IMG/VR virus record: IMGVR_UViG_3300033434_000395
Span: 1 to 38,385 of that record
Origin: a virus
Lineage: Duplodnaviria; Caudoviricetes
DNA: 38,385 bases
Strand: one strand, 5' to 3'
Shown here piece after piece: positions 466 through 38,385 of this stretch. The translations under genes were made by a program, and so were the position numbers. Every line of letters begins with the position of its first letter. The first letter of the stretch is position 1. The notes under the pieces were generated by a model. It worked only from the letters and a program-made list of their open reading frames with translations, had not been told where the DNA came from and made no database searches.

Positions 466-990
466 TTATATCCCGGCGCCGCGCCTCAAATGTTGCAATG
501 CCGCTTCCAGTACCGGCTCACTGGCTTCCGGCTGCAAGCTGCCGTCGGCCAGTACCGGAAGGAACGGGCGGGCCGGGATGTCTGAGCCGGGGTGATTGAC
601 CGATTTTGCAAATCGGCCGCCAAATGCCAGCACCTTCTTTTTCACAGGTCGAATCGTGTGCGCCTTCGTTTTGCCGCCGAACTGGTGAATGGCCGCATAC
701 ACCTTATTCGTACCAATTACCGCCTCGGTAGCTGATGCACTAGTTGTAATAGACGCCGCCAGTTGCCCGCTATCCTGCAGGATCATGCCACCCTTGCGCT
801 TCTCGGACGGATTTTTGAGCGCCTTCCACCCCGGTCTGCCCTGCGCTGCAAAATTTCGTTCCGTCTGATTTGCCAGCACCTGTGCAATATCCCGCATCGC
901 CGGTTTCATATTGCCAAGATTGAGCTGCATCTGGCGCAATGCCGCCTTCAAAGCAGAGTCAACAATCCGAATACCGACCAACTCACTCAT
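466..990 (-). CDS. Mu gpG-like virion morphogenesis protein
   Basis: Motifs ILQDSGQL, GTNKVYAAIHQFGG and IPARPFL. ATG 990 overlaps the gpF stop (ATGA). Confidence 0.9.
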   Translation of the reverse strand: MSELVGIRIVDSALKAALRQMQLNLGNMKPAMRDIAQVLANQTERNFAAQGRPGWKALKNPSEKRKGGMILQDSGQLAASITTSASATEAVIGTNKVYAAIHQFGGKTKAHTIRPVKKKVLAFGGRFAKSVNHPGSDIPARPFLPVLADGSLQPEASEPVLEAALQHLRRGAGI

Positions 991-1829
991 TGCAGCTCCC
1001 TCTTTGCCAATTCGGTCAGGTTGCCGGTATAGCGCGCCGTCTCCGGTTTCCACGCCGCGCCCGGATTGTGGCTCCAGCCCACATCCGGCGATACGATCAG
1101 CCGCCGCTTGCCGGATGGGTCATCAGGGTGCCTGGCCGAGTACGTTGCCACTTCGCGCAGCTCGCCGGTTTTTTTCGACACCAATTTTTGCGTACTGCCC
1201 AGCATGCCATCCGACCGCGACGGCTTGACGCGATCACGAGTCAAATCGCCGCCTGACAGTGTGGTCACGCGACAGCGGCAATTCCAGCCATTCGGTGGAT
1301 AAAACGACTGCCAGAATGGATCATCAAACCGAAATGCCAGACCATGCAGCGCACGATGCGCAGGCCGAGTGCGTCCATCCATCACGGCGATGTACTGCCA
1401 AAACGGTCGGTTATCGACGTTTTCTATCTGCTCGGCATAGCGCCCGGCCATGTACGCGGTTTGCGTGTTGGCCCGGTAAATGGTTTCCAGCCGCCACGGG
1501 CTTCCAAGCTGCACCTGTTCAAGCTCGCCGGTATCTGGGTTGCGCTGCTCTTGCTCGCCCCACCAGCCCTTGGCTTTCAATACGGGCGTCAATTCTTTCT
1601 CGAACCAGGCTGCCGTTTGCCCTTCGGTCAAGGCATGCTGCAATACGTCACGAATGTCTTGCAGGATATCCAGCTTGGCCACCTTGGCCACGGTAAACGC
1701 TTTCGCGTGCGCCTGTTGCCACAAATCTTCCCAATCCCAGGTGATCGCGTAGCCCTTGCCGGTCAGGTAAGCAATCGCCTCCTTCGGCGGCAGTTTCATG
1801 CAATACGCCAGGTCAACAGGTTCAGGCAT
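987..1829 (-). CDS. Mu gpF-like head morphogenesis (minor head) protein
   Basis: AFTVAK, RLETIYRAN, DGRTRPAH and YPPNGWNCRC motifs; follows the portal gene. Confidence 0.93.
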   Translation of the reverse strand: MPEPVDLAYCMKLPPKEAIAYLTGKGYAITWDWEDLWQQAHAKAFTVAKVAKLDILQDIRDVLQHALTEGQTAAWFEKELTPVLKAKGWWGEQEQRNPDTGELEQVQLGSPWRLETIYRANTQTAYMAGRYAEQIENVDNRPFWQYIAVMDGRTRPAHRALHGLAFRFDDPFWQSFYPPNGWNCRCRVTTLSGGDLTRDRVKPSRSDGMLGSTQKLVSKKTGELREVATYSARHPDDPSGKRRLIVSPDVGWSHNPGAAWKPETARYTGNLTELAKRELQ

Positions 1830-3300
1830 GCAACCGCCCCCACAAATCTGCCACGAATATCACGCGTGCCAACCGCTCCTGCAGCCCGTCGGCATCCATA
1901 CCTGGATACAGATCAGCCAATTCACCCAGCAATTCATCCGGTGGAACGCCTGCGGCCACCCGCTTGAAAAGCGGCGTCAACATCGTTTTGGCATCCTGGT
2001 TCAAATCTTCCAGCGAAAGTTCCTCCAGCGCTGCATCGAGCGCTTCCTGATCCGGGAAACCGTTTTCACTCTCTGCAAATTCAGCAGTTGAAGCAGTGGC
2101 AGCAGATTCAGCCACTTCAACCAGATCGCCATCCTGCAAGCCGTATGCCCGCCGGAAATAAGCCGGGGTAAATTGTGCACCGGAATCAGTCAACAGCTTG
2201 TCGCGCTTGGCCAGTACCTCATCGACTTCTTCCTGCTCCCACATCTGGAATTTCGGCAGTACGCCATCGCCAAAATTAAGATCGTGAATCCAGCCAATCA
2301 ATTCATTGAGCGTATCCTCCACCAGCAACTTATCCGCATCGCGAATATCGCGCGTAACCTGAAAACCTGCTTGCGCGCTGGCATTGGTACTGTTCGCCTC
2401 GCTGGTCTGGTTCTGGCCAAGCAGCGCGATGTTCACCTCAGAGCGGCAGAACATCAGCAGCCGTTCGAACACGCCCGCCGAGCCACCTTTACCTTGCGCC
2501 TCGACAATTTCCACGCTGGAATCATCCGGAATCACCGCCACCGCATCCTGCACCATATCCGCCAGCTGTTCCAGAAAGGCATCCGTTTCACTGGGCGGCG
2601 TATTACGCGGGTGCTTGCCGACCAGCCACGGCGAGCCATATTTCTCCGAAAACTGAACCCAGAATGTCAGCCCGCCTTTCTTGAAAGCGGTCGGCCAGAA
2701 GCACATCGACAAATCCGCAAAACCATACGGATTATCGTAACTGGCATCCTGCCGTGGCAACAGGAACTTGCGCTCCGGCAGCAGCTCGCCATCGATGGGC
2801 GATTGCCGCGTTTTCAGGCGCAGCTGGTTTTCAAGGTCGAAGTGGAACCACTCCGCAGGTTTGCCAATCAAATCCACTGGCACGATATAACCGCCAACCT
2901 TCCCCCAGACCACCTCAATCGGCTGATAGCCATACAGCGATGCATCCAGAATCTCGGAAATGATGCGGTTCATCGGCAGGCGAGCAAACACACTCTCAAT
3001 CAACGCCGCAGCTCTGCTTTTCGCCTTGCCTCGGTCAATGCCGTGCTCCAGCGCCAGCACAGCGCCCTTGCGACGGCGGATATTGCCGCCAACCTGCGGC
3101 TCGGTGCGCAGATCACGGTACACCTGAATATCCTTGCCCAGCTTTTTGAGCACCGGATCAGGGTTCGGCAGCAGCATGCTCCAGTCATTAAAATCAGGTC
3201 GGTTATTACGCGTGGCCAGCTGCACGCCAAGCTGGCGCCGGTTGCCGCCAAACTGGACGAATTCAGTCGGGCTGACGTAAATCCCGTTCTTGCTTGTCAT
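1822..3300 (-). CDS. Portal protein (Mu gp29 / DUF935-like)
   Basis: LPNPDPVLK and FSEKYGSP motifs; 492 aa; lies between terminase and gpF. Confidence 0.92.
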   Translation of the reverse strand: MTSKNGIYVSPTEFVQFGGNRRQLGVQLATRNNRPDFNDWSMLLPNPDPVLKKLGKDIQVYRDLRTEPQVGGNIRRRKGAVLALEHGIDRGKAKSRAAALIESVFARLPMNRIISEILDASLYGYQPIEVVWGKVGGYIVPVDLIGKPAEWFHFDLENQLRLKTRQSPIDGELLPERKFLLPRQDASYDNPYGFADLSMCFWPTAFKKGGLTFWVQFSEKYGSPWLVGKHPRNTPPSETDAFLEQLADMVQDAVAVIPDDSSVEIVEAQGKGGSAGVFERLLMFCRSEVNIALLGQNQTSEANSTNASAQAGFQVTRDIRDADKLLVEDTLNELIGWIHDLNFGDGVLPKFQMWEQEEVDEVLAKRDKLLTDSGAQFTPAYFRRAYGLQDGDLVEVAESAATASTAEFAESENGFPDQEALDAALEELSLEDLNQDAKTMLTPLFKRVAAGVPPDELLGELADLYPGMDADGLQERLARVIFVADLWGRLHA

Positions 3301-4820
3301 CGGTAGCCCTTGGTAAGTGATTGAGATTTGCGGCGACCGCGCGATTTAACTGTCACCGGCCCCTTGTTGATTTCTCGGCTGGCGAAATACGCCAGCGCCA
3401 CCGCCACCGCCGCATCGCCGTGGCGCTGCCCTTTATCGTCGCCGGTGGTGCGCGTCTCCGGCACACGCGGCACGCCCTTGACGATCTGCACAGCGCGTAA
3501 ATCTGCCAGCACGTCTGCATCCTTCGGCAAATCGACCAGCGTGCCATCTTCCAGCGCGGCCTTCACCGGCGGCATGTGTTCCCGATACCAGCTTTCTGTC
3601 AGCATCACTTGCTGAATGCGGGTGGCGCCGTAGCGCTGCATGGCAAACTCGGCCAGGAACTGACCATTGCCGCGCGCATCGAACGCACCGCCAGTAAAAC
3701 GCGGCAGGCGGTCGAGCAGGTAAAACGCCACCTGTTCCTGCTGGCGAAACGGCACATTGCGCAATTCAAGGATGAACGGCACCTTGCGCGTCAGGTTATG
3801 CAACTGAATCAGCGGCACATGCACGGTCAGATCGCCGCTGCGGCCGAAATCTTCGCCGTTGAATGAAATCGCATCCTCTGGCAATGCCGCCAGCAACGGT
3901 GCCAGATTTTCTTCCAGCCAGTCGCGGCACTCGGCAGCGCGAATATGATCCGGGAGCAGCTCGAACCCCTGTTTGCACTCCCAGCGCAGCACCGGCGTAT
4001 CCGCCGACATGCGTGATTCGATCAGCGCCCGCGACAACCAGGCACCACCGCCGTTGGACGGCACGCAATCCAACTCTTCCTCCGCGCCAGAACCATAGAA
4101 CGCATACACGCTGGCCATCCACGCCGCCTCATCCTCGGCGCACCAATCCTTGCCGAGACGCATGCAGACGCGGCGATACAGCCCATCGGCCACCGCTTCC
4201 TGGAACGCCACGCGATGCACTACACCGGCGCGCTTGCCTGCGCGAATATCTTCGACCAGCTCATTGAACGGGTTGTCCGAACCGTTGTGCGTCGAAATCA
4301 CCCGCACCTTGCCGCCCCAGATCAGCATCGCCAGCGCGGCCTTCAGCAGTTCGTCCAGCTTGTCATGGAAAGCCGCTTCATCGATCACGATCACGCCCTG
4401 CCTGCCGCGCAGGTTGGACGGCCGCGAACTCAGCGCAACAATACGAAAACCCGATGCCGGAAAGCGGATCGTGAAAGTCTTGATGTGCTTGTCTTCCTCA
4501 TCGCCATCCCAGAAACCTTCTTCGATTTCACCCGCTGCATAATTGAACACCCGCGCCCACATGCCGCATGCCTGGATGTATTCAATCGTCATATCCTGGT
4601 TGTAGGCGATGTAATACACGTTCTGGCCACCGGCATTTCGTGCCGAAGCCGCTGTCAGCACATCGTCCGCCGCCTCGCCCCATGTCAGGCCGGTGCGGCG
4701 GCTTTTTTCGATCACCTTCAATGGAGAAGCATCCGCCACCCAGCGCTGCTGATAGCCCATCAGCACGGCTGGTGCATCAACCGTGGCGGTATTCGGCAGA
4801 TTTGCCGGAACGGCTGTCAC
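3297..4820 (-). CDS. Terminase large subunit (Mu gp28-like)
   Basis: EKSRRTGLTW Walker A-like, IVIDEAAFH Walker B, GEDFGRSGD and HGDAA nuclease motifs. Confidence 0.95.
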   Translation of the reverse strand: MTAVPANLPNTATVDAPAVLMGYQQRWVADASPLKVIEKSRRTGLTWGEAADDVLTAASARNAGGQNVYYIAYNQDMTIEYIQACGMWARVFNYAAGEIEEGFWDGDEEDKHIKTFTIRFPASGFRIVALSSRPSNLRGRQGVIVIDEAAFHDKLDELLKAALAMLIWGGKVRVISTHNGSDNPFNELVEDIRAGKRAGVVHRVAFQEAVADGLYRRVCMRLGKDWCAEDEAAWMASVYAFYGSGAEEELDCVPSNGGGAWLSRALIESRMSADTPVLRWECKQGFELLPDHIRAAECRDWLEENLAPLLAALPEDAISFNGEDFGRSGDLTVHVPLIQLHNLTRKVPFILELRNVPFRQQEQVAFYLLDRLPRFTGGAFDARGNGQFLAEFAMQRYGATRIQQVMLTESWYREHMPPVKAALEDGTLVDLPKDADVLADLRAVQIVKGVPRVPETRTTGDDKGQRHGDAAVAVALAYFASREINKGPVTVKSRGRRKSQSLTKGYR

Positions 4821-5362
4821 TGCGCAATCCCCAAAATCTCGCGCCGCAACTGGCTGACCGACTCCGCCGACAGCCCGCCCTTTTTGGCGATTTTTTCGAC
4901 GTTTTCTGCTGCGGCTTGCGCACGTGCCTGCACCTCCTGCCGGAATTTCTTCTGGTTCACACTGGCGCGCGCCAGCGTTGCGATGTTCTTGGCGGCGCTC
5001 GAAAGCAGCCCTATGCGTTCTGCCGGGTCAATATCCTCTTCGGTGGCTTCCTGCAAATTCACGATGGATTCAAACATTTCGGTCTGCACCAGCGCAATCA
5101 CCGCTTCCGAGCGCGCATCCTGATCATCTGCCGCGCCTTCGGTCAATAGCCGTGCCGCTTCGGTGCTGGCCTTGATGGCGGCCAGCCGACGCTCAATTTT
5201 CTGGCCATAGCGGTGGATGGACGATTTGCTGATGGCAAACCCCTTGGCGCGCAGCGCTTCCTCCAGCGCCACATAATCACCAAAATTGGCATTCAACAGT
5301 GCCTTGTCCAGCCAGTCTCGGACTTCCGCCGGCAGTTGACCGACCTTGTTGCGCGGTGCCAT
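4817..5362 (-). CDS. Putative terminase small subunit (Mu gp27 / DUF3486-like)
   Basis: ISKSSIHRYG motif, C-terminal GGLSAESVSQLRREILGI, and position directly upstream of terL. Confidence 0.85.
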   Translation of the reverse strand: MAPRNKVGQLPAEVRDWLDKALLNANFGDYVALEEALRAKGFAISKSSIHRYGQKIERRLAAIKASTEAARLLTEGAADDQDARSEAVIALVQTEMFESIVNLQEATEEDIDPAERIGLLSSAAKNIATLARASVNQKKFRQEVQARAQAAAENVEKIAKKGGLSAESVSQLRREILGIAQ

Positions 5363-5363
5363 G

Positions 5364-5675
5364 TCAGCCCCAGTACTTCGCCGGGCGGGCAATGCCTGGA
5401 TCGCACGCGATGGTGTATTCGGCGATATCGACGCCGTATCGCGTCAAATCTGCCCACCAGCGGCCACTTGGTTCCTTGCGCAGCTTGACCAGTTCACGAT
5501 CGGCCAGATAATCCAGCTCCTTGCGCACCTCAATCGGCGTCACGTCGGGGTAGATGGATTGCATCGTCTGCTGAATCACATCCTCGACCAGTTCATTAGG
5601 GCGTGCATTGTTCAATGCCAAAATCAAATACCACCGCAGGCTTTCGCGTCGGATTTTCGCCGGGTCAATATTCAT
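5364..5675 (-). CDS. Mu gp26-like winged-helix protein
   Basis: RRESLRWYLIL, ELDYLADRELV, LTRYGVD and PGIARP motifs; position in the packaging block. Confidence 0.8.
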   Translation of the reverse strand: MNIDPAKIRRESLRWYLILALNNARPNELVEDVIQQTMQSIYPDVTPIEVRKELDYLADRELVKLRKEPSGRWWADLTRYGVDIAEYTIACDPGIARPAKYWG

Positions 5676-15292: not shown

Positions 15293-15652
15293 ATGGCTGA
15301 ACTATCCCGTGATGAAGCGTTGTTTGGGTTGACCCAGGCCTTCCTTGTGATGGCCGGAATGTTGCAGCGGCATGGCCTGCTTGATGAACAACTGCTGCAA
15401 GCAATGCTGAGGCGACAAGCTGAAATTGCGCCGGTTGGCAGCCAGATGCTTGAAAAGCTGGCTGGCCAGCTGCTGGCAGATTATCGACATGAGCAATCTC
15501 ATACCGGCCTCACGCAGCAAGGCGGCTGTCAATCGACTTCGGATCGGCGATTTCGCCCTGCTTCAAGCCAAGCAAAACCGCGATTTTGTGCGACTGGCCG
15601 CGCAAGCATTTCTTGCGCTCGGCAAGAACTTCAAAAACGAGGTTTGGAGTAA
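15293..15652 (+). CDS. Possible antisense-oriented small protein in the early region
   Basis: SD GAGG; possible TTGCAG-N18-GATAAT promoter; helical N-terminal 70 aa. The 3' 143 nt overlap the Ner-like gene. Confidence 0.4.
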   Translation: MAELSRDEALFGLTQAFLVMAGMLQRHGLLDEQLLQAMLRRQAEIAPVGSQMLEKLAGQLLADYRHEQSHTGLTQQGGCQSTSDRRFRPASSQAKPRFCATGRASISCARQELQKRGLE

Positions 15653-15737
15653 AACCGTGGCTGATGGCCCACGATGTGATCGAAATCCCCTTGCGAAGGA
15701 ATTCGGCACGTACATCATCAGGGGTGCGAGTCGCCAT
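15510..15737 (-). CDS. Ner/Cro-like DNA-binding protein (BcepMu gp16-like)
   Basis: RTPDDVRAEFLRKGISITSWA...RGQSHKIAVLLGLK; first gene of the early operon, divergent from the repressor. Confidence 0.88.
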   Translation of the reverse strand: MATRTPDDVRAEFLRKGISITSWAISHGFTPNLVFEVLAERKKCLRGQSHKIAVLLGLKQGEIADPKSIDSRLAA

Positions 15738-15794: not shown

Positions 15795-15823
15795 ATTATG
15801 GGACATAAATGTCCCTATGTAAA
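15795..15823 (-). promoter_or_regulatory. Early promoter Pe with palindromic operator in its spacer
   Basis: Minus strand TTTACA-N17-CATAAT; perfect palindrome GGGACAT-AA-ATGTCCC at 15800-15815; degenerate copy GGGGTTTTTGTGTCCC at 15824-15839. Confidence 0.82.
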
Positions 15824-15832
15824 GGGGTTTTT

Positions 15833-16273
15833 GTGTCCCAAACGACAGGTGACCGAATTAAATTACTCCGAGCCACGCGCGGAGTCGCTGAATTTGCCGA
15901 GACGCTTGGAGTAAATAGAAAGACTGTGACGCGTTGGGAGGCGAACGAGGCTCTTCCTGACGGCGCGTCCCTGTTAATTCTCAGAGAAAAATTCGGCGCC
16001 GATCCAGGGTGGCTACTTACAGGCATCGGCGAGACCCCAAGCAGCACAACCCTTACAGCAGATGAGCTGCAGTTGCTTGAACTCTTTCGGGCGGCACCAC
16101 TCGCCGGCAAGATGGCAGCCGTTGGCGCCCTGCAAGGTGTTCAAGGAATAAGCGCGATGCAAAAGCCGGTCAAACAAGTTATCAAGGGGGGCGTTAGCGG
16201 CGCGCTGACACAGACAGGCAACATTACGTATACGAACGCTTCTGATAGCAAAAGCGGTAAAGGAAAATCGTGA
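15833..16273 (+). CDS. Prophage repressor (XRE HTH, no S24 peptidase domain)
   Basis: GDRIKLLR...AEFAETLGVNRKTVTRWEANEALPD...DPGWLLTG; divergent from Ner. Start could be GTG 15833 or ATG 15809. Confidence 0.88.
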   Translation: MSQTTGDRIKLLRATRGVAEFAETLGVNRKTVTRWEANEALPDGASLLILREKFGADPGWLLTGIGETPSSTTLTADELQLLELFRAAPLAGKMAAVGALQGVQGISAMQKPVKQVIKGGVSGALTQTGNITYTNASDSKSGKGKS

Positions 16274-16812
16274 TTACCCAGCGCATCGACACCGTCAAAA
16301 AAGGCGGCAACGTTACCCAGAATGGAGATATCATCGTTTGCCCCGGTGTTGAGGATTGCCCACTTAAAGGCAATACCCCAGAATCAGAACGCCAAAAGAA
16401 ATTCGCCAAAGATACCGGCATCTGGTGCCCACCAGAAACACGCGAAACACTTGAACGCCTGCTGTCAAACCACCGTTTCACGGCCAAAGAATTGGCTCAA
16501 GCCTGGCGAGTCAGGTCTTTAAGCTACGACCCGGACACCGGAAAACTTAAAACCTTTACCCCGAAGCTGGAGTTGTGGTTCGGCATCGTGATGCTGACCC
16601 TGTTCGCGTTTTACATAGCAATCATGGCGTCCGGCATGATCCTGGTTCGCCCTGGGGTTTACGCAAATCTGCAATTCTTTACGACCATTGCAGGATTTCT
16701 TGGCATGGCTTGGGCGGTCGTACATTTCCATCTTGCGCCACGGCGCACCGCAGTCCGGGTGCGTTCGATTTTATTAGCGAAGCATGAGGATTCCCCGGCG
16801 CAAAACTCTTAA
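16270..16812 (+). CDS. Accessory 2-TM membrane protein coupled to the repressor
   Basis: GTGA overlap with the repressor stop; two C-terminal hydrophobic helices. Confidence 0.75.
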   Translation: MITQRIDTVKKGGNVTQNGDIIVCPGVEDCPLKGNTPESERQKKFAKDTGIWCPPETRETLERLLSNHRFTAKELAQAWRVRSLSYDPDTGKLKTFTPKLELWFGIVMLTLFAFYIAIMASGMILVRPGVYANLQFFTTIAGFLGMAWAVVHFHLAPRRTAVRVRSILLAKHEDSPAQNS

Positions 16813-16829
16813 CACCAACAATAACAACA

Positions 16830-17456
16830 ATGCGTGCTAAACAAACGGTTGGATCGGATGTATCCGGTGAGATGGCAAACCGGGATATAAAGCATCACAA
16901 CCACTCACACATCAAGACCGGCCACATAACCGGCAGCCACAACATCATTGGCCATCAGGGTGCCATCCATCTGCAGATGGCCGCCAGCCCCGTCATCAAG
17001 GTCGTTATCCAACCGGGTGCTCAACACATCAGTGAAGCGCACAAGTTCGAATTACGGGAACTGGTGAATGAAATCATCCGGCTTGAAGCCACCATCAAAA
17101 AGAGTCCAAAACGGCACGCTGCCGTCTGGTCCGCACTCACGGCCAAGCTCAAGGTCACCAGTTACCACCTGATTCCGGCCGACGCATTTGAACGAGCCAA
17201 GGCCTATTTGCAAACCTGGTGCGCGAGGCTACGCGCCTCGAAGAACGCGCCGACCAAAGACCCAGACTGGCGCAACAGCCGCTACAGCTTCATCCATGCC
17301 GCTGCCGCAGAAATCGGCAGAAATGAAGACATACCGAAACTACTGGCTGAGCGTTACAGCGGCCGCTCACTGAAAGACCTGTCCAGCCTTGAGCTGGAAA
17401 ACGTATATCGCATTATCGCAAGCTGGAAGAAACAGGCGCGCCAGAATGGCGCATAG
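16830..17456 (+). CDS. Accessory protein with G/H/N-rich N-terminus and ORF6C-like helical domain
   Basis: VWSALTAKLKVTSYHLIPADAFERAKAYL resembles the ORF6C antirepressor-associated motif; A-rich leader. Confidence 0.7.
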   Translation: MRAKQTVGSDVSGEMANRDIKHHNHSHIKTGHITGSHNIIGHQGAIHLQMAASPVIKVVIQPGAQHISEAHKFELRELVNEIIRLEATIKKSPKRHAAVWSALTAKLKVTSYHLIPADAFERAKAYLQTWCARLRASKNAPTKDPDWRNSRYSFIHAAAAEIGRNEDIPKLLAERYSGRSLKDLSSLELENVYRIIASWKKQARQNGA

Positions 17457-17511
17457 GTTTTACCCCGTAGGGTGCAGGCTTTGCCTGCCGCCTGCATTAC
17501 TGGAGGTGTAC

Positions 17512-18045
17512 ATGCGGAAATATTTGGCCGCGCTTGCCACGACCGTTTTCATGATTGCCGGGTGTTCTGACGGCACGCCCAACGTTTCGATAGGCGCCCC
17601 GCTAGACCAGTACATCAAAAGCATTGCACCCAATGTAAAGGAATTGCGGCTTCACCAAATGGCGGTCGGGACAGACGGTAAATTCAAGAAGGAAGGTGGT
17701 AAGGCCACCTATAACGTCGAGCTACATATCACCCAGCCATACCAGTGGGACAGCGCCCAGGACTGGAACAGTCTGGCCGGGCGCATTCACAAGACCGCAA
17801 AGCTTGCCTTTGAGCGTGATGACGTTGACCGGCTATGGGTGCGGGTGTTCGACAAATCCGGCGCAGACTGGGCGGTGCTGACCTATCACCGCAAGGAGCT
17901 GCCGCAGAACTTCAAGGAATTGAGTTATCAGGAATCCTTCGCTTTCGCCAATGCCGTGCCAGCGATTGTGCAGAGCCAGCGGCCGCTGTGTGAGTTTTAT
18001 GCCAAATATCAGTCAGCGCGACCACTCAAGAACCATGGGTGTTAA
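17512..18045 (+). CDS. Accessory lipoprotein
   Basis: SD GGAGG; MRKYLAALATTVFMIAG-C lipobox. Confidence 0.8.
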   Translation: MRKYLAALATTVFMIAGCSDGTPNVSIGAPLDQYIKSIAPNVKELRLHQMAVGTDGKFKKEGGKATYNVELHITQPYQWDSAQDWNSLAGRIHKTAKLAFERDDVDRLWVRVFDKSGADWAVLTYHRKELPQNFKELSYQESFAFANAVPAIVQSQRPLCEFYAKYQSARPLKNHGC

Positions 18046-18075
18046 TGTAATACAAACCATTGAAAGGAATTGTTG

Positions 18076-18948
18076 ATGAGCCGAAGCAGAACCATTCTGA
18101 TTGCAGCTTTGAATATTGCCATGCACAAGCCGCACTCTCCGAAGCGTTATGTTGAAATGTTCTTTGACGCCTACAAACTTGGCGCCAAGGTCAAACTCAG
18201 CAATGTCCACTACTCCGTGCTCGGATCGGCCTACCAAGAAAACCCAGATGACGCGCTGGATCCTATCAACGGTGAGATCTGGCGATTCGTAAAAATCGAT
18301 CCTAATGAAACGTGGTTTAACACAAGCACAAAAGACGTCGCAACAGAATCCGAGTTGCGAGAAGTCAGCATTCCTGATCACCTACTAGCCCATATGCAGC
18401 GGATCCCATATGTATTCCACCCCAAAACTCACCGGCTTTATTTCATCACAAAAGACGGGAAAACCAGCATGGGAGCAGGAACGCTAAAAAAAATACTCAA
18501 CAACATTTTGGGCCGCCTTGTAGCGGAAAAACGCTACCCGGAAATCGAAGTAACGGTCGTTCCAGAAGCTGAATCCGTTGAGCGAATCTTAAGCATGCCT
18601 TATCTGCAAAAATTGCATATTGAGTTAGTTCGCCCCAATGCGGATGACGGCGTCGATGAAGAAAGGAGATTCATGGAAAAAATGGCTAATGAGCGCGCAA
18701 AAAAGTACACCCAAAGCCTGATTTCCGAGCGGAACGGAAGCCTTGCGCCAGACGAACAGACCAAATCACTTGCGCGCATGGCGGCACATAATGGTAAAGT
18801 AGTAGGCGAAGGGCGTGACGCGACGGGTGGAAAATTGATTGAATCCACAACGCAGTCCCCGATGATTCAGTCGGCACTTGTTGACCCAAATATTGAATCA
18901 ACAAGGAATGTTTTGACACGCACGGCAACTCACCTTGACGCCGCATGA
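18076..18948 (+). CDS. DUF4747-like protein
   Basis: LNIAMHKPHSP..Y, G.IWRFVKID....WFN, FHPKTHRLYF and L.IELVRPNADD pattern recognised as DUF4747-like; SD AAAGGA; AT-richer than flanking phage genes. Confidence 0.72.
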   Translation: MSRSRTILIAALNIAMHKPHSPKRYVEMFFDAYKLGAKVKLSNVHYSVLGSAYQENPDDALDPINGEIWRFVKIDPNETWFNTSTKDVATESELREVSIPDHLLAHMQRIPYVFHPKTHRLYFITKDGKTSMGAGTLKKILNNILGRLVAEKRYPEIEVTVVPEAESVERILSMPYLQKLHIELVRPNADDGVDEERRFMEKMANERAKKYTQSLISERNGSLAPDEQTKSLARMAAHNGKVVGEGRDATGGKLIESTTQSPMIQSALVDPNIESTRNVLTRTATHLDAA

Positions 18949-19529
18949 CCAATGTAGAAAAAAAGTGGTTTGATCAATACTCTGGGGCATTTGAAAACAT
19001 CAAACGTTACTGGGGTGCATATGGCGGGCGCAGTGCTGTGCTGCGCTCACCATATTTTCATGCGGCGGTGCTACTTCTTCTCGTTACCTGGAATAGCTGG
19101 TCGCAACCTAAATGGTGGGAACAAGTCATTAGTGTCATGCCAAACTTGCTTGGGTTCACCTTGGGCGGGTTTGCAATATTCATCGGATTTGGTGATGAAA
19201 AATTTCGAGCTATTCTGGCCGAGCCTGATGAGGATAAAAACAAACCAACTATTTATGTTTCGTTGTGCGCGGCATTCGTGCATTTCATCCTTATTCAGTT
19301 GGCAGCCTTAATTTACGCCATCATTGTCGGCTCATTACATTTTTATGTGCCCTGGCCGACATTCGTTGAAAAACTGATCCCTTATCTAAATCTGTTATCC
19401 GGGTCGGTCGGCTTTTGCCTATTCCTTTATGCCCTCACGTCATTGGCTGCGGTAACAATGCACGTTTTCAGAATTGCGCATTTGTATTCCGTACACCAAA
19501 GATTCCGGCAGTCAGATACGACCGACTAG
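18945..19529 (+). CDS. Multi-pass membrane protein coupled to the DUF4747-like gene
   Basis: ATGA overlap; YW.AYGG..A.L.SPY and P.LLGFTLGGFAIF motifs; about 4 hydrophobic helices. Confidence 0.8.
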   Translation: MTNVEKKWFDQYSGAFENIKRYWGAYGGRSAVLRSPYFHAAVLLLLVTWNSWSQPKWWEQVISVMPNLLGFTLGGFAIFIGFGDEKFRAILAEPDEDKNKPTIYVSLCAAFVHFILIQLAALIYAIIVGSLHFYVPWPTFVEKLIPYLNLLSGSVGFCLFLYALTSLAAVTMHVFRIAHLYSVHQRFRQSDTTD

Positions 19530-19699
19530 CCGCTTCATATGAGAGCTTTTAATTTGGGTATCTAGCGCCTCAAAATTCGCAGCCTCGCGCGTCTACCCCA
19601 TCGTTCCTTGCCAGCGTCATATAAACATTTATAAAGCTATCCCCGCGCCATTCCAGCGCGCATCCTCCCGACCAAACTCCAGCGACACCCAAGCCAAAA

Positions 19700-19751
19700 G
19701 CTTTAAACCGCATTAAAAGATCGTTTCGCGCCTGCCCGGCAATATGGCGGC
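19700..19751 (+). promoter_or_regulatory. Late promoter 2 (head operon, P_I-like)
   Basis: GCTTTAAACCGCATTAAAAGA-N19-CAATAT-N6-ATG(19752). Confidence 0.82.
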
Positions 19752-20840
19752 ATGAATGCGAACCCAATCCACATTTTCAAGCCTGGCCGCCACACCACGA
19801 TGGCTGGCGAGGCGATTGAATTCACCGAAGCAGACCTTGCGGCCACAGCCAGCGCCTACGCGCCTGGCACGCATGAAGCGCCACTGGTGATTGGCCATCC
19901 TTCGACTGACGACCCGGCCCAAGGCTGGGTGGCTTCGCTTGCTGCCAATGCGCGCGGGCTGTTTGCCGTGCCGCGCGATGTGGCCCCGGCATTTGCCGAA
20001 CAGGTTGGCCAGCGCCGCTACGGCAAGGTGTCCGCCAAATTCTACCGTCCTGATTCACCCAACAACCCCGTGCCAGGCGTCTGGTATCTGCGCCACGTTG
20101 GTTTTCTTGGCGCACAGCCGCCCGGCGTGAAGGGGCTGGACGATCCCGCCTTTTCCGATGGCGACGATTGCGTGGCCTTTCAGGAGCCGGTTGCATTTGC
20201 CGATGCGCCCGCCTGGCCGGTGGCCGGTGCGTTGCGCCGCCTGCGTGACTGGCTGCTGGCGAAGTTTGGCGCTGAGGATGCCGACCAGGCATTGCCCGGC
20301 TGGTACGTCGAAGACGTTGAGGCGGCCGCTCGCAAAGACGATTTATCCCAACCGGCATTTGCCGAACCATTACGAAAAGCGACGGCGGACGCGAAAGGGA
20401 ATCCCGCCCAATCACCTGAGGAGAGCCATGAAGTGACCCCGGAACAGAAAGCCGCGCTGGAGGCAGAAAACGCCCAGCTGAAACAACAGATCGATGCGCT
20501 GCGCGCTGCACAGGCGAAGAAAGCAGCCGACGCGCGCCATGAAGATAACGCTGCATTTGCCGAGCAGCTGGTGGGCGAAGGCAGGCTGGCGCCGAAGCAC
20601 AAGGCTGCGCTGGTGGCCGCGCTGGACCAGGTCGGCGCGCCAGGCAGCGACGGCAAGGAAGTCGAGTTCGGCGAATGTGAAGACCGGCAGCCGCTTGGCA
20701 AAGCCTTGCGCGCCATGTTTGCCGACGCCCCGCCGGTGGTCGAATTCGGCGAATCAGCCACCAAGGAGCGCACTGCCACGCAATCGAAAACCAATCCGCT
20801 GCTGGCCGATGCTGAATCGCGTGCAGCGGCGCAACGATAG
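19752..20840 (+). CDS. Mu gpI-like prohead protease/scaffold
   Basis: IHIFKPG.H, APLVIGHP, YGKVSAKFY and YLRHVGFLGAQPP.VKGL motifs. Confidence 0.92.
   Translation: MNANPIHIFKPGRHTTMAGEAIEFTEADLAATASAYAPGTHEAPLVIGHPSTDDPAQGWVASLAANARGLFAVPRDVAPAFAEQVGQRRYGKVSAKFYRPDSPNNPVPGVWYLRHVGFLGAQPPGVKGLDDPAFSDGDDCVAFQEPVAFADAPAWPVAGALRRLRDWLLAKFGAEDADQALPGWYVEDVEAAARKDDLSQPAFAEPLRKATADAKGNPAQSPEESHEVTPEQKAALEAENAQLKQQIDALRAAQAKKAADARHEDNAAFAEQLVGEGRLAPKHKAALVAALDQVGAPGSDGKEVEFGECEDRQPLGKALRAMFADAPPVVEFGESATKERTATQSKTNPLLADAESRAAAQR
20433..20840 (+). CDS. In-frame scaffold protein (Mu gpZ-like) from an internal start
   Basis: SD GAGGAG (20418-20423) before in-frame GTG 20433; coiled coil VTPEQKAALEAENAQLK. 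Confidence 0.65.
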   Translation: MTPEQKAALEAENAQLKQQIDALRAAQAKKAADARHEDNAAFAEQLVGEGRLAPKHKAALVAALDQVGAPGSDGKEVEFGECEDRQPLGKALRAMFADAPPVVEFGESATKERTATQSKTNPLLADAESRAAAQR

Positions 20841-20849
20841 GAGCAAACG

Positions 20850-21218
20850 ATGGCGACATTTGAACAGCCCAAAACCATCAGCGATCTGCTGCTGACCGAA
20901 GTCAAGCCGGGATGGACGAAAGACAAGGCCGATTTTGCCGCCGGTGCGGAATACCCGCTCGGCACCGTACTGGCCAAGGTGTCCGGCAAGTACCAGGCGC
21001 TTAATCCGGCCGGCGAAGGCGACGCCAAGGTGGCGCATGCCGTGGCGGCTGAAGACGTGGACGCGCTGACTGCCATCACGAAAGGCACCGTCATCGCTCG
21101 CGGTGCCGCAGTCGAATCGACGGCGCTGGTCTGGCCGGCCGGCGCGACCGACGCGCAGAAAGCAGCGGCAATTGATGAACTGAACGCGCGCGGCATCGTT
21201 GTGCGCGCTGCCCTGTAA
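20850..21218 (+). CDS. Head decoration protein (lambda gpD-like)
   Basis: GTVLAKV..GKY, VIARGA.V....LVWP and L.ARGIVVR motifs; directly upstream of the capsid gene. Confidence 0.85.
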   Translation: MATFEQPKTISDLLLTEVKPGWTKDKADFAAGAEYPLGTVLAKVSGKYQALNPAGEGDAKVAHAVAAEDVDALTAITKGTVIARGAAVESTALVWPAGATDAQKAAAIDELNARGIVVRAAL

Positions 21219-21233
21219 CCAAAGGAGAACTGC

Positions 21234-22214
21234 ATGAATCTGGAAGACCTTTTCACAGTTGCCACGCTCACGGCAGCCATCAACAAGCTGCCCGCCGTGC
21301 CAGGCAAAATCGGGGCAACCGGCTTGTTCCAGGAGCGAGGCATTGCCACCACGACGGTTGTCATCGACGAACGCGAAGGCCGCCTGGTTTTGGTGCCGAA
21401 TACCTCGCGCAGCGACGACCCGGCGCCGGTCAAGGGTGATAAGCGCAAGCGACGCACATTCGAGACGCTGCATTTGCCGCTCTCTGCGCAACTGCTACCA
21501 TCGGATCTGCAAAATCTTGCGCCATTTGGCCAGGAAGGCGTGCAAAACCAGCAAGCCACGGTCATCAATGACAAGCTGCAAGGCCTGAAGAACAGCATTG
21601 AGGCCACGCGCGAATTCCAGCGTGTCGGCGCGTTGCGCGGCGAACTGCTCGATGCAGATGGCAAGGTGATTTACAACTTGTTCGATGAATTTGGCGTCAC
21701 GAAAAAGAGCATCAACATCGCGTTCGGCACGAATGCGACCGATGTGCGCAAGCTCTGCCTGGATGCCAAGCGGCACGCGGAAAAAAAGCTCAACGGAGTA
21801 ATGGTGACCGGCTTCCGAGCCTACTGCGGCTCGGATTTCTTCGATAAGCTGACTAGTCACGAAACCGTGAAAGCCGCCTATGCTGGCTATCAGGAAGCGC
21901 AAGATCGGCTTGGCGGCGACATGCGCAAAGGTTTCCGCTATGGTGACATCGAGTTCATTGAGTACGATGCCGAGGTGTCTGGCCAGAAGTTCATTCCGGC
22001 CGACGTTGCACAGGTGTTCCCGGTTGCCACGGGTGTGTTCCAGATGGTCAACGCTCCGGCGAACTACAACGAAACGGTCAACACCCTCGGTCAGGCGTAT
22101 TACGCCAAAGCCGAGCCGCGCAAGATGGGCAAAGGCTGGGATCTGGAAGCGCAGGCCAACCCGCTGGCGTTGTGTCTGTACCCGGAAGCGCTGGTTGAGC
22201 TGAAGGCGGCATAA
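21234..22214 (+). CDS. Major capsid protein (lambda gpE-type)
   Basis: LTAAINKLP, IEATREFQRVGALRG, APANYNETVNTLG and QANPLALC..PEALV motifs. Confidence 0.9.
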   Translation: MNLEDLFTVATLTAAINKLPAVPGKIGATGLFQERGIATTTVVIDEREGRLVLVPNTSRSDDPAPVKGDKRKRRTFETLHLPLSAQLLPSDLQNLAPFGQEGVQNQQATVINDKLQGLKNSIEATREFQRVGALRGELLDADGKVIYNLFDEFGVTKKSINIAFGTNATDVRKLCLDAKRHAEKKLNGVMVTGFRAYCGSDFFDKLTSHETVKAAYAGYQEAQDRLGGDMRKGFRYGDIEFIEYDAEVSGQKFIPADVAQVFPVATGVFQMVNAPANYNETVNTLGQAYYAKAEPRKMGKGWDLEAQANPLALCLYPEALVELKAA

Positions 22215-34371: not shown

Positions 34372-36018
34372 ATGGGTCGAATTTATATTGGAGAAGCCAA
34401 TGCGAATAGCTCTTCGTCAGCGCCGATCATCGAGACGGTCGTAACGGCTGGAGAAGCTATTCAAAACGGAGATTTGCTTGTCTTGGCCAAAGACGCCAAG
34501 GTGTATTGGTCTGATGACCCAAGTACTGGTCGTGCCGCACGAGCACTGCGACCGTTCAATGTGCCATCCGTGCTGCGCTCGTCATTAATTGAATCAGTGA
34601 ACACGCTTTCGTCGGCATCAAACGGCACTGCATCGAACGTTGGCATTGGCCACGCACAACTATCAGACGGTAATGTCATCGTAGCGTGGTTCGCCAAAGC
34701 CTCACCATATTCGTTGACGTTCAATATTTACTCCCCGTTCGGTGAGCTTGTTTCTGGGCCAATCATTGTTGGTGATGGGGCAGCGTCTGGACAAGCAGAT
34801 ATTCAAGTTCTGACGCTGACAAATGGGAACATTGCATTTGTTTATCCGACCATGAATGGGGCACGCTTTCGGTTTGCAATTTACACACCGTCAGGAGCCA
34901 AAGTCGTTGCACCAACGGACATTGGGACTTTGTCAACCGAACCGGTGTCATTTAGTGCCGCCACGTTGGCGGGCGGCGGATTTGCCGTTGGCTATTTTGA
35001 TGGTTCTGGGAAGATTTTCCGCTATGCGGTTTACAGTGACAGCGGCAATATAGTCAAGGCTCCGGCAACAGCATTATCTGTCTCAACCGTGTCAAATTAT
35101 GCCCGCAGCACATCAATCATCCCACTAGCAAACGGACAGTTTGTTTTCGTGGCGGGCGCATCAGGAACAGTCTACTTCTACCGTTACGACGCGACTGGAA
35201 CCCTGCTGGGAGCGCAAACCACTGTCGGGGGAGCAGCATCCAGCGGAGCTTTCGTTTACGGTGCCGCTTTAAGCAACGGGGGCTTCGCGATCGGTTGGTA
35301 CGCAAGCGGCGCATATTACATAAGCGTCTGGACGCCATCTGGGGATCAAGTTGGTTCCACGGTGACCATCAGCGCAACCGGCGCGGGGAGCTATCCTGAC
35401 GACATGGCGCTAGTGCCGACTGCCACCGGCAATGTTGCAGTTGCAATCGGTGGCGGCGCCGCCGCTTCACCCAGTGTGGCCGTGTATAGTGGAACCACAG
35501 GAGCTGCAGTATCGGGCATTCTTGCCAGCGCAGCGCCTGTGGCATCTGGCGGCGTTACGATTGGTGCTCTTTCTAACGGAGACATTCTTGTGACCTCCGT
35601 TGGAACATCCGGCAAGTTGTACCAGATGGATGGGGCATGCAACCTGTTGGCAACAACAACAATCACTCAACTTGCTACTGCCGCAAAATCACGACTGCTC
35701 ACATATACAAATTCCTACCGGCCATCTATTCCGCTGTTTAGTCTCGCCACCAACGATGGTAGCGGAAACATCCACCAAGGATCATTTATCGGGTACATGC
35801 AACAGTGTTCGCCAATAGGCGTTTCAACCGCAAGTGCCGGCGAGAATGGCGCCGCACCTGTACAGGTCACCGGTGTGGCCACTTTGCGCCAAAGCTTTGG
35901 GTGGCCGTATTCAATCGATGCCAATAGTTCTGCCGTACCTGGCCAACGTATGTGCATCGTCGGCAATCATGCAATTATGCAAGGTTTGCAACCTGACGCA
36001 GCCCGCAATATCAACTAG
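34372..36018 (+). CDS. Putative receptor-binding protein with about 7 propeller-like repeats
   Basis: SD GGAG; repeats LSDGNVIVAW, LTNGNIAFVY, LAGGGFAVGY, LANGQFVFVA, LSNGGFAIGW, TATGNVAVAI, LSNGDILVTS. Confidence 0.7.
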   Translation: MGRIYIGEANANSSSSAPIIETVVTAGEAIQNGDLLVLAKDAKVYWSDDPSTGRAARALRPFNVPSVLRSSLIESVNTLSSASNGTASNVGIGHAQLSDGNVIVAWFAKASPYSLTFNIYSPFGELVSGPIIVGDGAASGQADIQVLTLTNGNIAFVYPTMNGARFRFAIYTPSGAKVVAPTDIGTLSTEPVSFSAATLAGGGFAVGYFDGSGKIFRYAVYSDSGNIVKAPATALSVSTVSNYARSTSIIPLANGQFVFVAGASGTVYFYRYDATGTLLGAQTTVGGAASSGAFVYGAALSNGGFAIGWYASGAYYISVWTPSGDQVGSTVTISATGAGSYPDDMALVPTATGNVAVAIGGGAAASPSVAVYSGTTGAAVSGILASAAPVASGGVTIGALSNGDILVTSVGTSGKLYQMDGACNLLATTTITQLATAAKSRLLTYTNSYRPSIPLFSLATNDGSGNIHQGSFIGYMQQCSPIGVSTASAGENGAAPVQVTGVATLRQSFGWPYSIDANSSAVPGQRMCIVGNHAIMQGLQPDAARNIN

Positions 36019-36267: not shown

Positions 36268-36717
36268 ATGAAAACCCTATTTCTATTGGACGGCAAGGTC
36301 GTGAGCTGGGGCGTTGCACATCAGCCTGGTGTGGAAATTTCATCAACTGAATCCGGTTCGGTAAGACATGATGTCAATGACGATTCACCAATCGACGTCG
36401 GGTGGAACTACACGGTTTCCGACGGAGTGTATGCATTCACCGAACCTGACAACGCATATCCGGTTGTTGGACCGATCGGGTTCCAAATGCTGTTCACGAT
36501 GGACGAAACGGTAGCAGCAACCACTCTACGCGAAACTGACAAAAGGATAGAGGCATTCTGGAAACTCATCGACGACCCACGCACAGACGTGGTTGACTTG
36601 AATCTTGAGACGGTTCAGGGAGCTATTGAGTACACGCTCACTGCAGTGAAATCTGCCGGTGTCGAATTGGATGTCGCAGCGCGCAAAGCCGAAATCCTGA
36701 CAGGAATCGTGAAATGA
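36268..36717 (+). CDS. Putative tail fibre assembly/chaperone-like protein
   Basis: SD GGAGG; IDVGWNY...G...F.EP, FQMLFT..E and RKAEIL motifs; last gene of the fibre cassette. Confidence 0.6.
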   Translation: MKTLFLLDGKVVSWGVAHQPGVEISSTESGSVRHDVNDDSPIDVGWNYTVSDGVYAFTEPDNAYPVVGPIGFQMLFTMDETVAATTLRETDKRIEAFWKLIDDPRTDVVDLNLETVQGAIEYTLTAVKSAGVELDVAARKAEILTGIVK

Positions 36718-37185: not shown

Positions 37186-37258
37186 CGCCAGGCAACAGGA
37201 ATCGTTCTATAACAAGCTGAAATCGGAGGGCTATCGCGTCAAGGTGGTGGCCGTATGA
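37094..37258 (+). CDS. Small protein between com and ABC-GNAT
   Basis: SD AAGGAGG at 37081; GIIVLCDNARQQESFYNKLKSEGYRVKVV; stop overlaps the next ATG (ATGA). Confidence 0.75.
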   Translation: MQQDKERQVKTPGRNGFTYRELFGIIVLCDNARQQESFYNKLKSEGYRVKVVAV

Positions 37259-38385
37259 AAATCGAAATCCGACACCAATGCGCGGACTTTGACAGCTACC
37301 GCGCCGCTCGTGTGAAATCCCTGTTCAACGTCGATACAGGAGCCAATTTCGCGCTCAATGCCGACCTTCCGATCGAAGATAACGCTTGGCAGATTGGCGT
37401 CATCGTCGGGCCGTCCGGCAGCGGCAAAAGCAGCCTCGGTTCACGACTTGGCCGTTTCTATCAGCCACGCTGGCCAAAGGAAAAGCCGATCATCGACGCC
37501 ATCGGCCAGAATAGCGACTTCAACGCCGCCACGGCCGCACTGGCCGCCGTCGGGCTCGGAAGCGTGCCGGCGTGGCTCAGGCCATACCAGGTGCTTTCTA
37601 ATGGTGAGCGCTTCCGGGCAACGCTGGCCAGACTGGTTTGTGACGCGCCGGCATTCGCTGTCGTCGACGAATTTTCATCTGTCGTCGACCGGCAAATCGC
37701 CCAAGTTGGCGCGGGAGCGTTTGCCAAAGCATGGAAACGCACAGGCGGCCAAGTCGTGCTACTGTCCTGCCACTATGACATTCTCGATTGGCTGGAGCCT
37801 GACTGGATTTTCGACACGGCCACCGGCCACTTTGACCGGAGGCGTCTTCGACGACGCCCAATGTTCGAACTGTCTATCCATCAGACAAACTGGCAATATT
37901 GGCCCCTGTTTGAGCCGCATCACTATCTGAAGGTGCCACACATGATTGCTGCCGGTTGCTATGTTGGCGCAATCGATGGCCAGCCAGTAGCACACGTGGC
38001 ATTCAGCACGCGCCCCGGCCTTGTTGAAGCACGTGCCTGCCGCTTGGTCGTTCTGCCGGAATGGCAGGGAGCCGGCATCGGCATGAGGTTCCTGAACGCG
38101 GTCTGTGACGCTTGGCTGCGTGGCGAGAACCGCTACGGCAGGCAGATGCCTACCCTATTCCATACATCGCATCCGGGGCTGGCCAGCGCACTCCGGCGCG
38201 ATTCTAACTGGACGCAGGTATCAGCCAGGCTGCACGGTGAACATCGCGGCAGAAGCCGTGAATCGGTGGCGCAGAGCGCCATTCGAGCCGGCAAAGAACC
38301 GCTTGGCAACGCAGGCCACGGTGGCCACTTCCGAGCAATTCAGGGGTTCCGGTATTTGGGCAATCCGGCCAATCCCGAACCATAA
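37255..38385 (+). CDS. ABC-type ATPase fused to GNAT acetyltransferase (mom position; putative DNA-modifying enzyme)
   Basis: Walker A GPSGSGKS, signature LSNGERFR, Walker B AVVDEF, switch SCHYD; GNAT motif A RLVVLPEWQGAGIG. Confidence 0.88.
   Translation: MKIEIRHQCADFDSYRAARVKSLFNVDTGANFALNADLPIEDNAWQIGVIVGPSGSGKSSLGSRLGRFYQPRWPKEKPIIDAIGQNSDFNAATAALAAVGLGSVPAWLRPYQVLSNGERFRATLARLVCDAPAFAVVDEFSSVVDRQIAQVGAGAFAKAWKRTGGQVVLLSCHYDILDWLEPDWIFDTATGHFDRRRLRRRPMFELSIHQTNWQYWPLFEPHHYLKVPHMIAAGCYVGAIDGQPVAHVAFSTRPGLVEARACRLVVLPEWQGAGIGMRFLNAVCDAWLRGENRYGRQMPTLFHTSHPGLASALRRDSNWTQVSARLHGEHRGRSRESVAQSAIRAGKEPLGNAGHGGHFRAIQGFRYLGNPANPEP

What the first reader, a model, noticed from the sequence alone, without database searches (positions are those of the whole stretch)
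18076..19529. DUF4747-like protein plus 4-TM membrane protein: candidate two-gene anti-phage system
Seen: two translationally coupled genes (ATGA overlap), visibly AT-richer than the phage backbone, in the central accessory island just upstream of the protease promoter. No catalytic motif is obvious. Established: prophage accessory hot spots are rich in defence genes, and a soluble-plus-multi-TM pair is the layout of Kiwa (KwaA/KwaB) and several abortive systems. Inference: an uncharacterised sensor/membrane-effector defence module protecting the lysogen.
Basis: partly seen in the sequence, partly recalled or inferred. Interest (0 to 1): 0.82.

Follow-up and report, generated by a model that had tools for sequence, protein, structure and literature searches.

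The report
RexAB-like exclusion pair in Mu-like prophage
A Mu-like prophage carries two overlapping, AT-rich genes, a DUF4747 protein predicted to fold like phage lambda's RexA and a predicted four-helix membrane partner that travels with it, which likely form an untested relative of the classic RexAB phage-exclusion system rather than a new kind of defence.

Summary
Gene A (18076-18948, 290 aa, Pfam DUF4747, E 1.7e-75) and gene B (18945-19529, 194 aa, four hydrophobic segments) overlap by ATGA and are 47% GC in a 57% GC transposable prophage. The lead is RexAB, not Kiwa: A's model best matches lambda RexA (8TWQ, Foldseek E 1.7e-6), then RdgC. Papers already link DUF4747 to RexA, CarolAnn and Sbash, and one lists a 'DUF4747/CarolAnn' immune operon. 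In 99 of 104 loci found with B, DUF4747 lies directly upstream. Relatives sit in prophages or beside Gabija, Lamassu, Druantia and restriction genes. The pair shares no significant sequence with any tested Rex system, so its function is inferred. Less ordinary: in 16 of 85 clusters (12 Mu-like, this one included) the pair follows a phage repressor on the same strand, as in lambda's cI-rexA-rexB. Most likely, A senses an invading phage and activates B, which damages the membrane and aborts infection (about 0.6). This scan reported DUF4747 RexAB-like pairs three times before on other genomes. Verdict: new member of a known kind.

The parts
18076..18948 (+). Gene A: DUF4747 (PF15931) protein, 290 aa, predicted RexA/RdgC-type fold (split globular domain about 1-161 plus 263-290; inserted four-strand domain about 167-257)
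18945..19529 (+). Gene B: 194-aa predicted four-helix membrane protein with an amphipathic N-terminus; conserved P66-x-LLGFTLGGFA segment in TM2, FGD loop, H113/Q118 in TM3, R176
18063..18068 (+). Likely ribosome-binding site AAAGGA, 7 nt before ATG 18076
18945..18948 (+). ATGA stop/start overlap (translational coupling inferred)
15809..16273 (+). Context: prophage repressor-like HTH gene that heads the same-strand run ending in the pair
15510..15737 (-). Context: divergent small HTH gene, read as Ner-like from position (Pfam HTH_35 only E 0.098; label recalled from Mu-type switches)
16270..18045 (+). Context: three other cargo genes between repressor and pair (membrane protein, phrog_17822/ORF6C-like protein, lipoprotein-like protein)
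19530..19751 (+). Context: gap before the head protease gene (19752-20840), with elements near 19620-19720 conserved in related phages (likely late promoter)

Best explanation
These two genes are a co-inherited DUF4747/membrane-protein pair that likely works as a RexAB-type abortive-infection system protecting the lysogen. Shown: the genes, their overlap, low GC, DUF4747 identity, strict pairing across relatives and the position behind the repressor. Predicted: A has the RexA/RdgC fold, and B is a four-helix membrane protein. Inferred by analogy with lambda RexAB, CarolAnn 44/43, Sbash 30/31 and P. putida RexABpp: (1) both genes are expressed in the lysogen from the repressor's transcript; (2) A dimerises into a clamp that binds DNA non-specifically or recognises a protein of an invading phage; (3) activated A switches on oligomeric B; (4) B damages or depolarises the inner membrane, growth stops and the infection aborts. 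The lytic genes of the prophage itself would have to escape this, for example by shut-off of the repressor operon.
For: A's model (pLDDT 89.5): Foldseek top hits are lambda RexA 8TWQ (E 1.7e-6 and 3.8e-5), then RdgC (E about 2e-4), the only 5 rows at E<=0.001. VIA ranks 8TWQ first (Z 7.4, rmsd 4.3, 132 aligned, residues 7-290), with CENP-N/Chl4, Iml3 and RdgC below, the fold set named in PMC11077077. Strand order matches the published RexA split topology. The ESM Atlas gives a 0.93 feature neighbour cluster with 14% RexA and 34% DUF6731 members. PMC6426606, PMC6426596 and PMC7542560 report a DUF4747 motif in RexA, CarolAnn gp44 and Sbash gp30, each paired with a 4-TM protein. PMC13373217 lists 17 'DUF4747/CarolAnn' operons behind capKS immune regulators. 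99 of 104 B-anchored loci have DUF4747 directly upstream; 3 of the other 5 end at the contig edge. A and B distances correlate (Spearman 0.74 against at most 0.24 in 999 shuffles, 70 pairs). 16 of 85 clusters follow a phage repressor on the same strand, 3 of them with no called gene between (L040, L080, L077). 9 of 22 non-Mu, non-viral-collection clusters with at least 4 kb of flank have a known defence gene within 4.5 kb, against 2 of 18 arbitrary chromosomal stretches. Related phages with the same layout lack the pair in this slot (L123, L128).
Against: No significant sequence similarity to any tested system: lambda RexA/RexB and CarolAnn gp44/gp43 (HMM and hhalign E>=0.09), or P. putida RexApp/RexBpp (hhalign E 0.28 and 0.025-0.17, reversed control 0.027). 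CarolAnn gp44 and RexApp do not hit PF15931 at E<=10, so the published DUF4747 link is a weak HHpred match. The fold match is modest: TM-score about 0.3, Z 7.4 within 1 of KA1 and CENP-N rows. A is less basic than RexA and RexApp (pI 7.9, family median 6.9, against 8.6 and 9.2). B matches no solved structure beyond generic helical bundles. The defence-neighbour excess is weak (Fisher one-sided 0.038, two-sided 0.073; control not matched), and several loci sit among housekeeping genes (for example L045, L096, L103). In the literature RexA DNA binding does not track exclusion, and RexApp-RexBpp binding was not seen by two-hybrid.
Confidence: 0.6

Rival explanations
1. Butters-type reversed polarity: cytoplasmic A is the antiviral (toxic) effector, and membrane B tethers or neutralises it until infection releases it.
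For: Butters gp30/gp31 has the same DUF4747-like plus 4-TM anatomy and works this way (PMC7542560). In decayed relatives B stays whole while A is cut down (L016 cluster, L025, L098), and the one A without B away from a contig edge is itself truncated (L003).
Against: Four of the five described Rex-like systems use the membrane protein as effector (PMC12894663). B is more conserved than A (median pairwise identity 37% against 31%), with conserved glycines and polar residues in its helices. The decay pattern also fits an inactive B waiting for A, and the sample is biased because 104 loci were found with B and only 12 with A.
Confidence: 0.15
2. Works like Kiwa without being Kiwa: B anchors A at the membrane, and A grips injected phage DNA and stalls its replication without killing the cell.
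For: Same anatomy (4-TM plus DNA-binding dimer). The RdgC-type clamp suits DNA capture, and RexBpp activation gave no depolarisation.
Against: No DUF4868 or Kwa model hit. The fold is RexA-type, and tested RexA-fold pairs cause growth arrest or membrane damage.
Confidence: 0.1
3. Not defence: a toxin-antitoxin-like maintenance module or neutral cargo on mobile DNA.
For: Strict coupling and mobile contexts (integrases, IS elements). Decayed copies exist.
Against: Neighbours include GajAB, LmuABC, DruE, type I/II restriction genes, McrBC and PD-T7-5. capKS-regulated copies are listed among immune operons.
Confidence: 0.08
4. Mainly a tuner of the prophage's own lysis-lysogeny switch or transposition, as lambda RexA biases the switch, with exclusion a by-product.
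For: 16 of 85 clusters lie behind a repressor, 12 in Mu-like phages. PMC11077077 raises this as an open possibility.
Against: Most clusters have no repressor nearby, and close relatives of the phage copies sit in defence islands (quick tree). rexABpp deletion did not change its repressor promoter.
Confidence: 0.07

Closest known systems
Phage lambda RexA/RexB (PF15969/PF15968; RexA structure 8TWQ; PMC11077077)
   Same: Predicted RexA fold as top structural match, A-then-B order, four-helix membrane partner, position behind the repressor.
   Different: No sequence similarity. B is 194 aa against 144. Three cargo genes separate the pair from the repressor. The carrier is a transposable phage.
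P. putida prophage P1 RexABpp (PP_5643/PP_5644; PMC12894663), which hits PADLOC PDC-M53A/B
   Same: RexA-fold protein plus a 188-aa 4-TM protein, behind a repressor with cargo genes between. B shows a similar P-x-L-x-GF...F-x-FG stretch in TM2.
   Different: RexApp is not PF15931. The pair does not hit PDC-M53. The B-RexBpp likeness is not significant.
Gordonia phage CarolAnn gp44/gp43 and mycobacteriophage Sbash gp30/gp31 (PMC6426606, PMC6426596); 'DUF4747/CarolAnn' operons of PMC13373217
   Same: Soluble protein with a reported DUF4747 motif plus a 4-TM protein; CarolAnn's pair is co-transcribed with its repressor.
   Different: CarolAnn gp44 and gp43 show no similarity to profiles of A and B, and gp44 does not hit PF15931. 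Sbash proteins were not fetched.
Mycobacteriophage Butters gp30/gp31 (PMC7542560)
   Same: Same two-gene anatomy, with a weak DUF4747 match.
   Different: The soluble protein is the effector there. Not compared by sequence here.
Kiwa KwaA/KwaB (10.1101/2023.02.26.530102)
   Same: 4-TM protein plus soluble DNA-binding partner.
   Different: KwaB is Rossmann-like plus DUF4868; A is DUF4747 with a RexA fold. No Kwa model hit. Kiwa's gene order (membrane gene first) is recalled, not checked.

Membership tests
DUF4747 (PF15931) | Score above Pfam's gathering cut-off over the whole profile | tested here: met
   254 bits against 27, profile 1-254 of 257
RexAB-type systems (functional class) | Cytoplasmic component with the RexA/RdgC split fold | tested here: met
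   Foldseek top hit 8TWQ, E 1.7e-6; VIA Z 7.4, rank 1 but within 1 of other rows; predicted model
RexAB-type systems (functional class) | Four-helix membrane protein encoded directly downstream | tested here: met
   Four family hydropathy peaks; 99 of 104 loci paired; TM1 weak in this protein
RexAB-type systems (functional class) | Expressed in the lysogen, often with the repressor | tested here: inconclusive
   Same-strand run from the repressor with gaps of 55 bp or less; no transcript data
RexAB-type systems (functional class) | Soluble component dimerises and binds DNA non-specifically | not testable with these tools
RexAB-type systems (functional class) | Both genes needed for phage exclusion, with membrane damage | not testable with these tools
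   Needs a phage challenge
Lambda RexA/RexB families (PF15969/PF15968, PADLOC RexA/RexB) | Match to the family profiles | tested here: not met
   No hit, while the lambda proteins hit them strongly
RexABpp / PADLOC PDC-M53 | Match to PDC-M53A/B models | tested here: not met
   No PADLOC hit at E<=1, while RexApp/RexBpp hit at 8e-157 and 3e-72
RexABpp / PADLOC PDC-M53 | Remote homology of the membrane proteins | tested here: inconclusive
   Shared TM2/loop motif, hhalign E 0.17 against reversed control 0.027; cross-HMM median 3.3 bits against -3.0 for reversed
CarolAnn gp44/gp43 | Sequence homology to gp44 and gp43 | tested here: not met
   HMM and hhalign E 0.09-0.33
Kiwa | KwaB with DUF4868; match to KwaA/KwaB models | tested here: not met
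   Only DUF4747 in Pfam; no PADLOC hit; definition
Kiwa | Structural match to solved KwaA/KwaB | tested here: inconclusive
   Not among the listed rows; an unlisted family is not excluded

The most novel reading that the evidence does not exclude
DUF4747 pairs are the Rex system of transposable phages. They were recruited repeatedly to the end of the Mu-type repressor operon, where the RexA-fold clamp reads replicative-transposition or Gam-bound DNA intermediates, both excluding competing phages and tuning the prophage's own lysis-lysogeny switch. That would extend lambda's dual Rex role to a second, unrelated phage switch.
Probability: 0.12. Interest if true: 0.68.

Novelty: new member of a known kind. 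Interest (0 to 1): 0.33.

Why it matters
Only five RexAB-like systems are described (PMC12894663), and their trigger and pore are still unresolved after 70 years. DUF4747 is a large branch (1,202 representatives at 50% identity) that the PADLOC 2.0 and NCBIfam models do not recognise. No tested member turned up in my searches. A proteobacterial pair is easy to clone and test. Its repeated position behind Mu-type repressors gives a direct test of whether Rex proteins generally modulate lysis-lysogeny switches, which PMC11077077 leaves open.

Tried and rejected
PADLOC and NCBIfam: no hit for either gene. PDB sequence search with both alignments: 0 hits at E<=10. tblastn of A against 50,697 phage records: no match; plasmids: 3 distant matches. 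Fold search of B: generic bundles only; the ESM Atlas gave only unnamed clusters for B. Kiwa structures did not appear in any listed fold-search row. Homology of B to RexBpp was suspected by eye but did not beat a reversed control. The genome-contig scan used one narrow pattern and gave 2 loci, so it says nothing on range. PF15931 was found in 1 of 399 other class-level genomes (one further genome not scored) and 1 of 100 relatives, none of 6 in the same genus. Sequencing runs: none was listed, which is no evidence on expression. The promoter scan found 1 site against 3.8 expected by chance, and none for the pair. The tree is the quick version only, since the careful search did not finish; it omits 15 of 85 clusters with partial genes. 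For the neighbour tally, Pfam covered 300 of 321 called neighbours of non-Mu loci, and PADLOC a hand-picked 94 proteins against all 137 control proteins; HipA, HigBA, HNH and NERD-UvrD neighbours were not counted as defence. Paper searches: DUF4747 (8 papers, 6 listed), PF15931 (0), RexA-like plus anti-phage, transposable phage plus exclusion, Mu-like plus RexA, DUF6731/PDC-M53. I saw no report of a tested PF15931 pair or of Rex-like pairs in Mu-type repressor operons, mostly judged from listings; subscription papers and bioRxiv supplements were not visible.

Full report
Setting. The window is a transposable (Mu-like) prophage: transposase and transposition protein, Gam, a late activator, lysis genes, terminase, portal and gpF on the minus strand, and protease, capsid and contractile tail on the plus strand. 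Its protease is closest to BcepMu-type phages (53%). In the middle, a repressor-like HTH gene (15809-16273) faces away from a small Ner-like gene and heads six same-strand genes; the last two are the finding.

Observation. Gene A (18076-18948, 290 aa) is a full DUF4747 member (E 1.7e-75). Gene B (18945-19529, 194 aa) overlaps it by ATGA and has four family-level hydrophobic segments (three by a strict single-sequence cut-off). The pair is 47.2% GC against 56.8% for the window, at the lowest-GC stretch of the window. Neither gene hits PADLOC or NCBIfam.

What A is. The AlphaFold2 model (33 sequences, pLDDT 89.5) has a split globular domain with an inserted four-strand domain, matching the published RexA topology. 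Foldseek gives 5 rows at E<=0.001: lambda RexA twice (1.7e-6, 3.8e-5) and RdgC three times. VIA over 48,161 chains ranks RexA first (Z 7.4, rmsd 4.3, 132 residues), with KA1 and CENP-N/Chl4 within 1 Z unit and Iml3 and RdgC lower. [quoted passage not shown] No catalytic motif is apparent; conserved residues are H20, Y25, W80, P100, H119, R-P-N-x-D (186-190) and N239-G240.

What B is. The model is all-helical (pLDDT 93.5) and matches only generic bundles. The family conserves a glycine-rich TM2 (P66, G70, F71, G74, G75), an FGD loop, H113 and Q118 in TM3, and R176, which would suit a packing or pore helix (inference).

The pair travels as a unit. Searching with B gave 104 loci (one, L042, is identical to the window). 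DUF4747 lies directly upstream in 99: 83 full length, 9 cut by the contig edge, 7 partial internally. Of the other 5, three have 62 bp or less upstream and two (L086, L102) lack it. Of 12 loci found with A (L002-L012, L117), 10 have B; L007 ends at the contig edge and L003 is truncated. All loci collapse to 85 clusters at 90% identity of B. A and B distances correlate (0.74, shuffles at most 0.24). The family is large (1,202 representatives) but patchy (1 of 399 and 1 of 100 other genomes).

Where relatives sit. 19 of 85 clusters are in Mu-like phages; 12 of the 63 clusters with a member from the metagenome scan are. In 12, this one included, the pair lies on the repressor strand behind a Ner/repressor switch, after 0-3 varying cargo genes and before lysis or head genes. 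In 4 more it follows a P2-like or lambdoid repressor (L008, L015, L040, L080). Others lie between gpF/gpG and the protease (L027, L033, L078). Two phages with this window's layout lack the pair in the slot (L123, L128), so it is exchangeable cargo. On the quick tree the phage copies are interleaved with island copies. Among 22 non-Mu, non-viral-collection clusters with at least 4 kb of flank, 9 have a known defence gene within 4.5 kb: L048 AbiEii, L057 and L100 type II R-M, L059 GajAB, L061 McrBC, L064 LmuABC, L070 and L105 type I R-M, L094 DruE. The control gave 2 of 18 arbitrary stretches (one-sided p 0.038, two-sided 0.073, unmatched). Several copies have only housekeeping neighbours.

Literature. 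PMC6426606, PMC6426596 and PMC7542560 (passages) report a DUF4747 motif, by weak HHpred match, in RexA, CarolAnn gp44, Sbash gp30 and Butters gp30, each with a 4-TM partner. PMC13373217 (passages and two supplement rows; two supplement files not searched) counts 17 'DUF4747/CarolAnn' operons behind capKS. PMC12894663 (parts 1-5 of 9 and supplement part 2) shows P. putida RexABpp: both genes needed, A a DNA-binding dimer, B causing membrane leak without measured depolarisation, no A-B two-hybrid signal. PMC11077077 (abstract, passages, two sections) gives the RexA structure. PMC11181664 (passages) only lists a DUF4747 gene. Kiwa preprint: passages. PMC9936078: abstract, exclusion genes in a transposable phage's repressor transcript.

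Direct comparisons. Profiles of A and B show no significant similarity to lambda RexA/RexB, CarolAnn gp44/gp43 or RexApp/RexBpp. gp44 and RexApp do not hit PF15931. So the pair is not a member of any tested sequence family; it is placed with them by fold, anatomy and gene position. It is not Kiwa.

Mechanism. Most likely (0.6), lysogenic expression from the repressor operon, sensing by an A dimer, activation of oligomeric B, membrane damage and abortive infection; every step after gene anatomy is inferred. Rivals: A as effector held by B (0.15), Kiwa-like DNA capture (0.1), non-defence cargo (0.08), switch tuning (0.07).

Verdict. A real, well-formed candidate, but a new member of a known kind: the class is described, the DUF4747 link is in print, and this scan noted such pairs three times before (notes, not evidence). 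What adds some interest is that no PF15931 pair was tested in the papers found, and that it recurs behind Mu-type repressors. Interest 0.33.

Noticed in passing
L120:2998-3987 and 3993-4556: The published P. putida RexApp/RexBpp proteins hit PADLOC candidate PDC-M53A/B (E 8e-157, 3e-72), so PDC-M53 appears to be a RexAB-type system. The one paper found with 'PDC-M53' (listing only) is a Salmonella comparison.
   Followed up: partly
L016:5523-5981 (same in L017, L062, L063): In a Mu-like repressor operon, A is reduced to its C-terminal domain joined to the start of an unrelated small gene, while B is whole; probably a deletion remnant.
   Followed up: partly
window 466-5392 and 19752-22214: Head genes are split: terminase, portal, gpF and gpG on the minus-strand arm, protease and capsid on the plus-strand arm, unlike BcepMu where they are contiguous. 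L004, L044, L123 and L128 likewise have the protease directly after the repressor operon.
   Followed up: partly
window 19620-19720: AT-rich elements before the protease gene are conserved in 5 related phages, a likely late-promoter signature.
   Followed up: partly
window 16270-18045: Three further cargo genes in the repressor operon (membrane protein, phrog_17822-like protein, lipoprotein-like protein) are unnamed; a lipoprotein homologue fills the slot alone in L128. They could be exclusion genes themselves.
   Followed up: no
window 34372-36015, 36268-36717, 37255-38385: A 548-aa ORF in the tail-fibre position and a 149-aa ORF have no PHROG or PADLOC match; the last gene is phrog_11143 with ATPase and acetyltransferase similarity.
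   Followed up: no
L003:431-6774: A truncated DUF4747 gene without partner lies beside a CBASS-type cyclase and a Lamassu LmuB gene in Comamonas phosphati.
   Followed up: no
   Followed up: no
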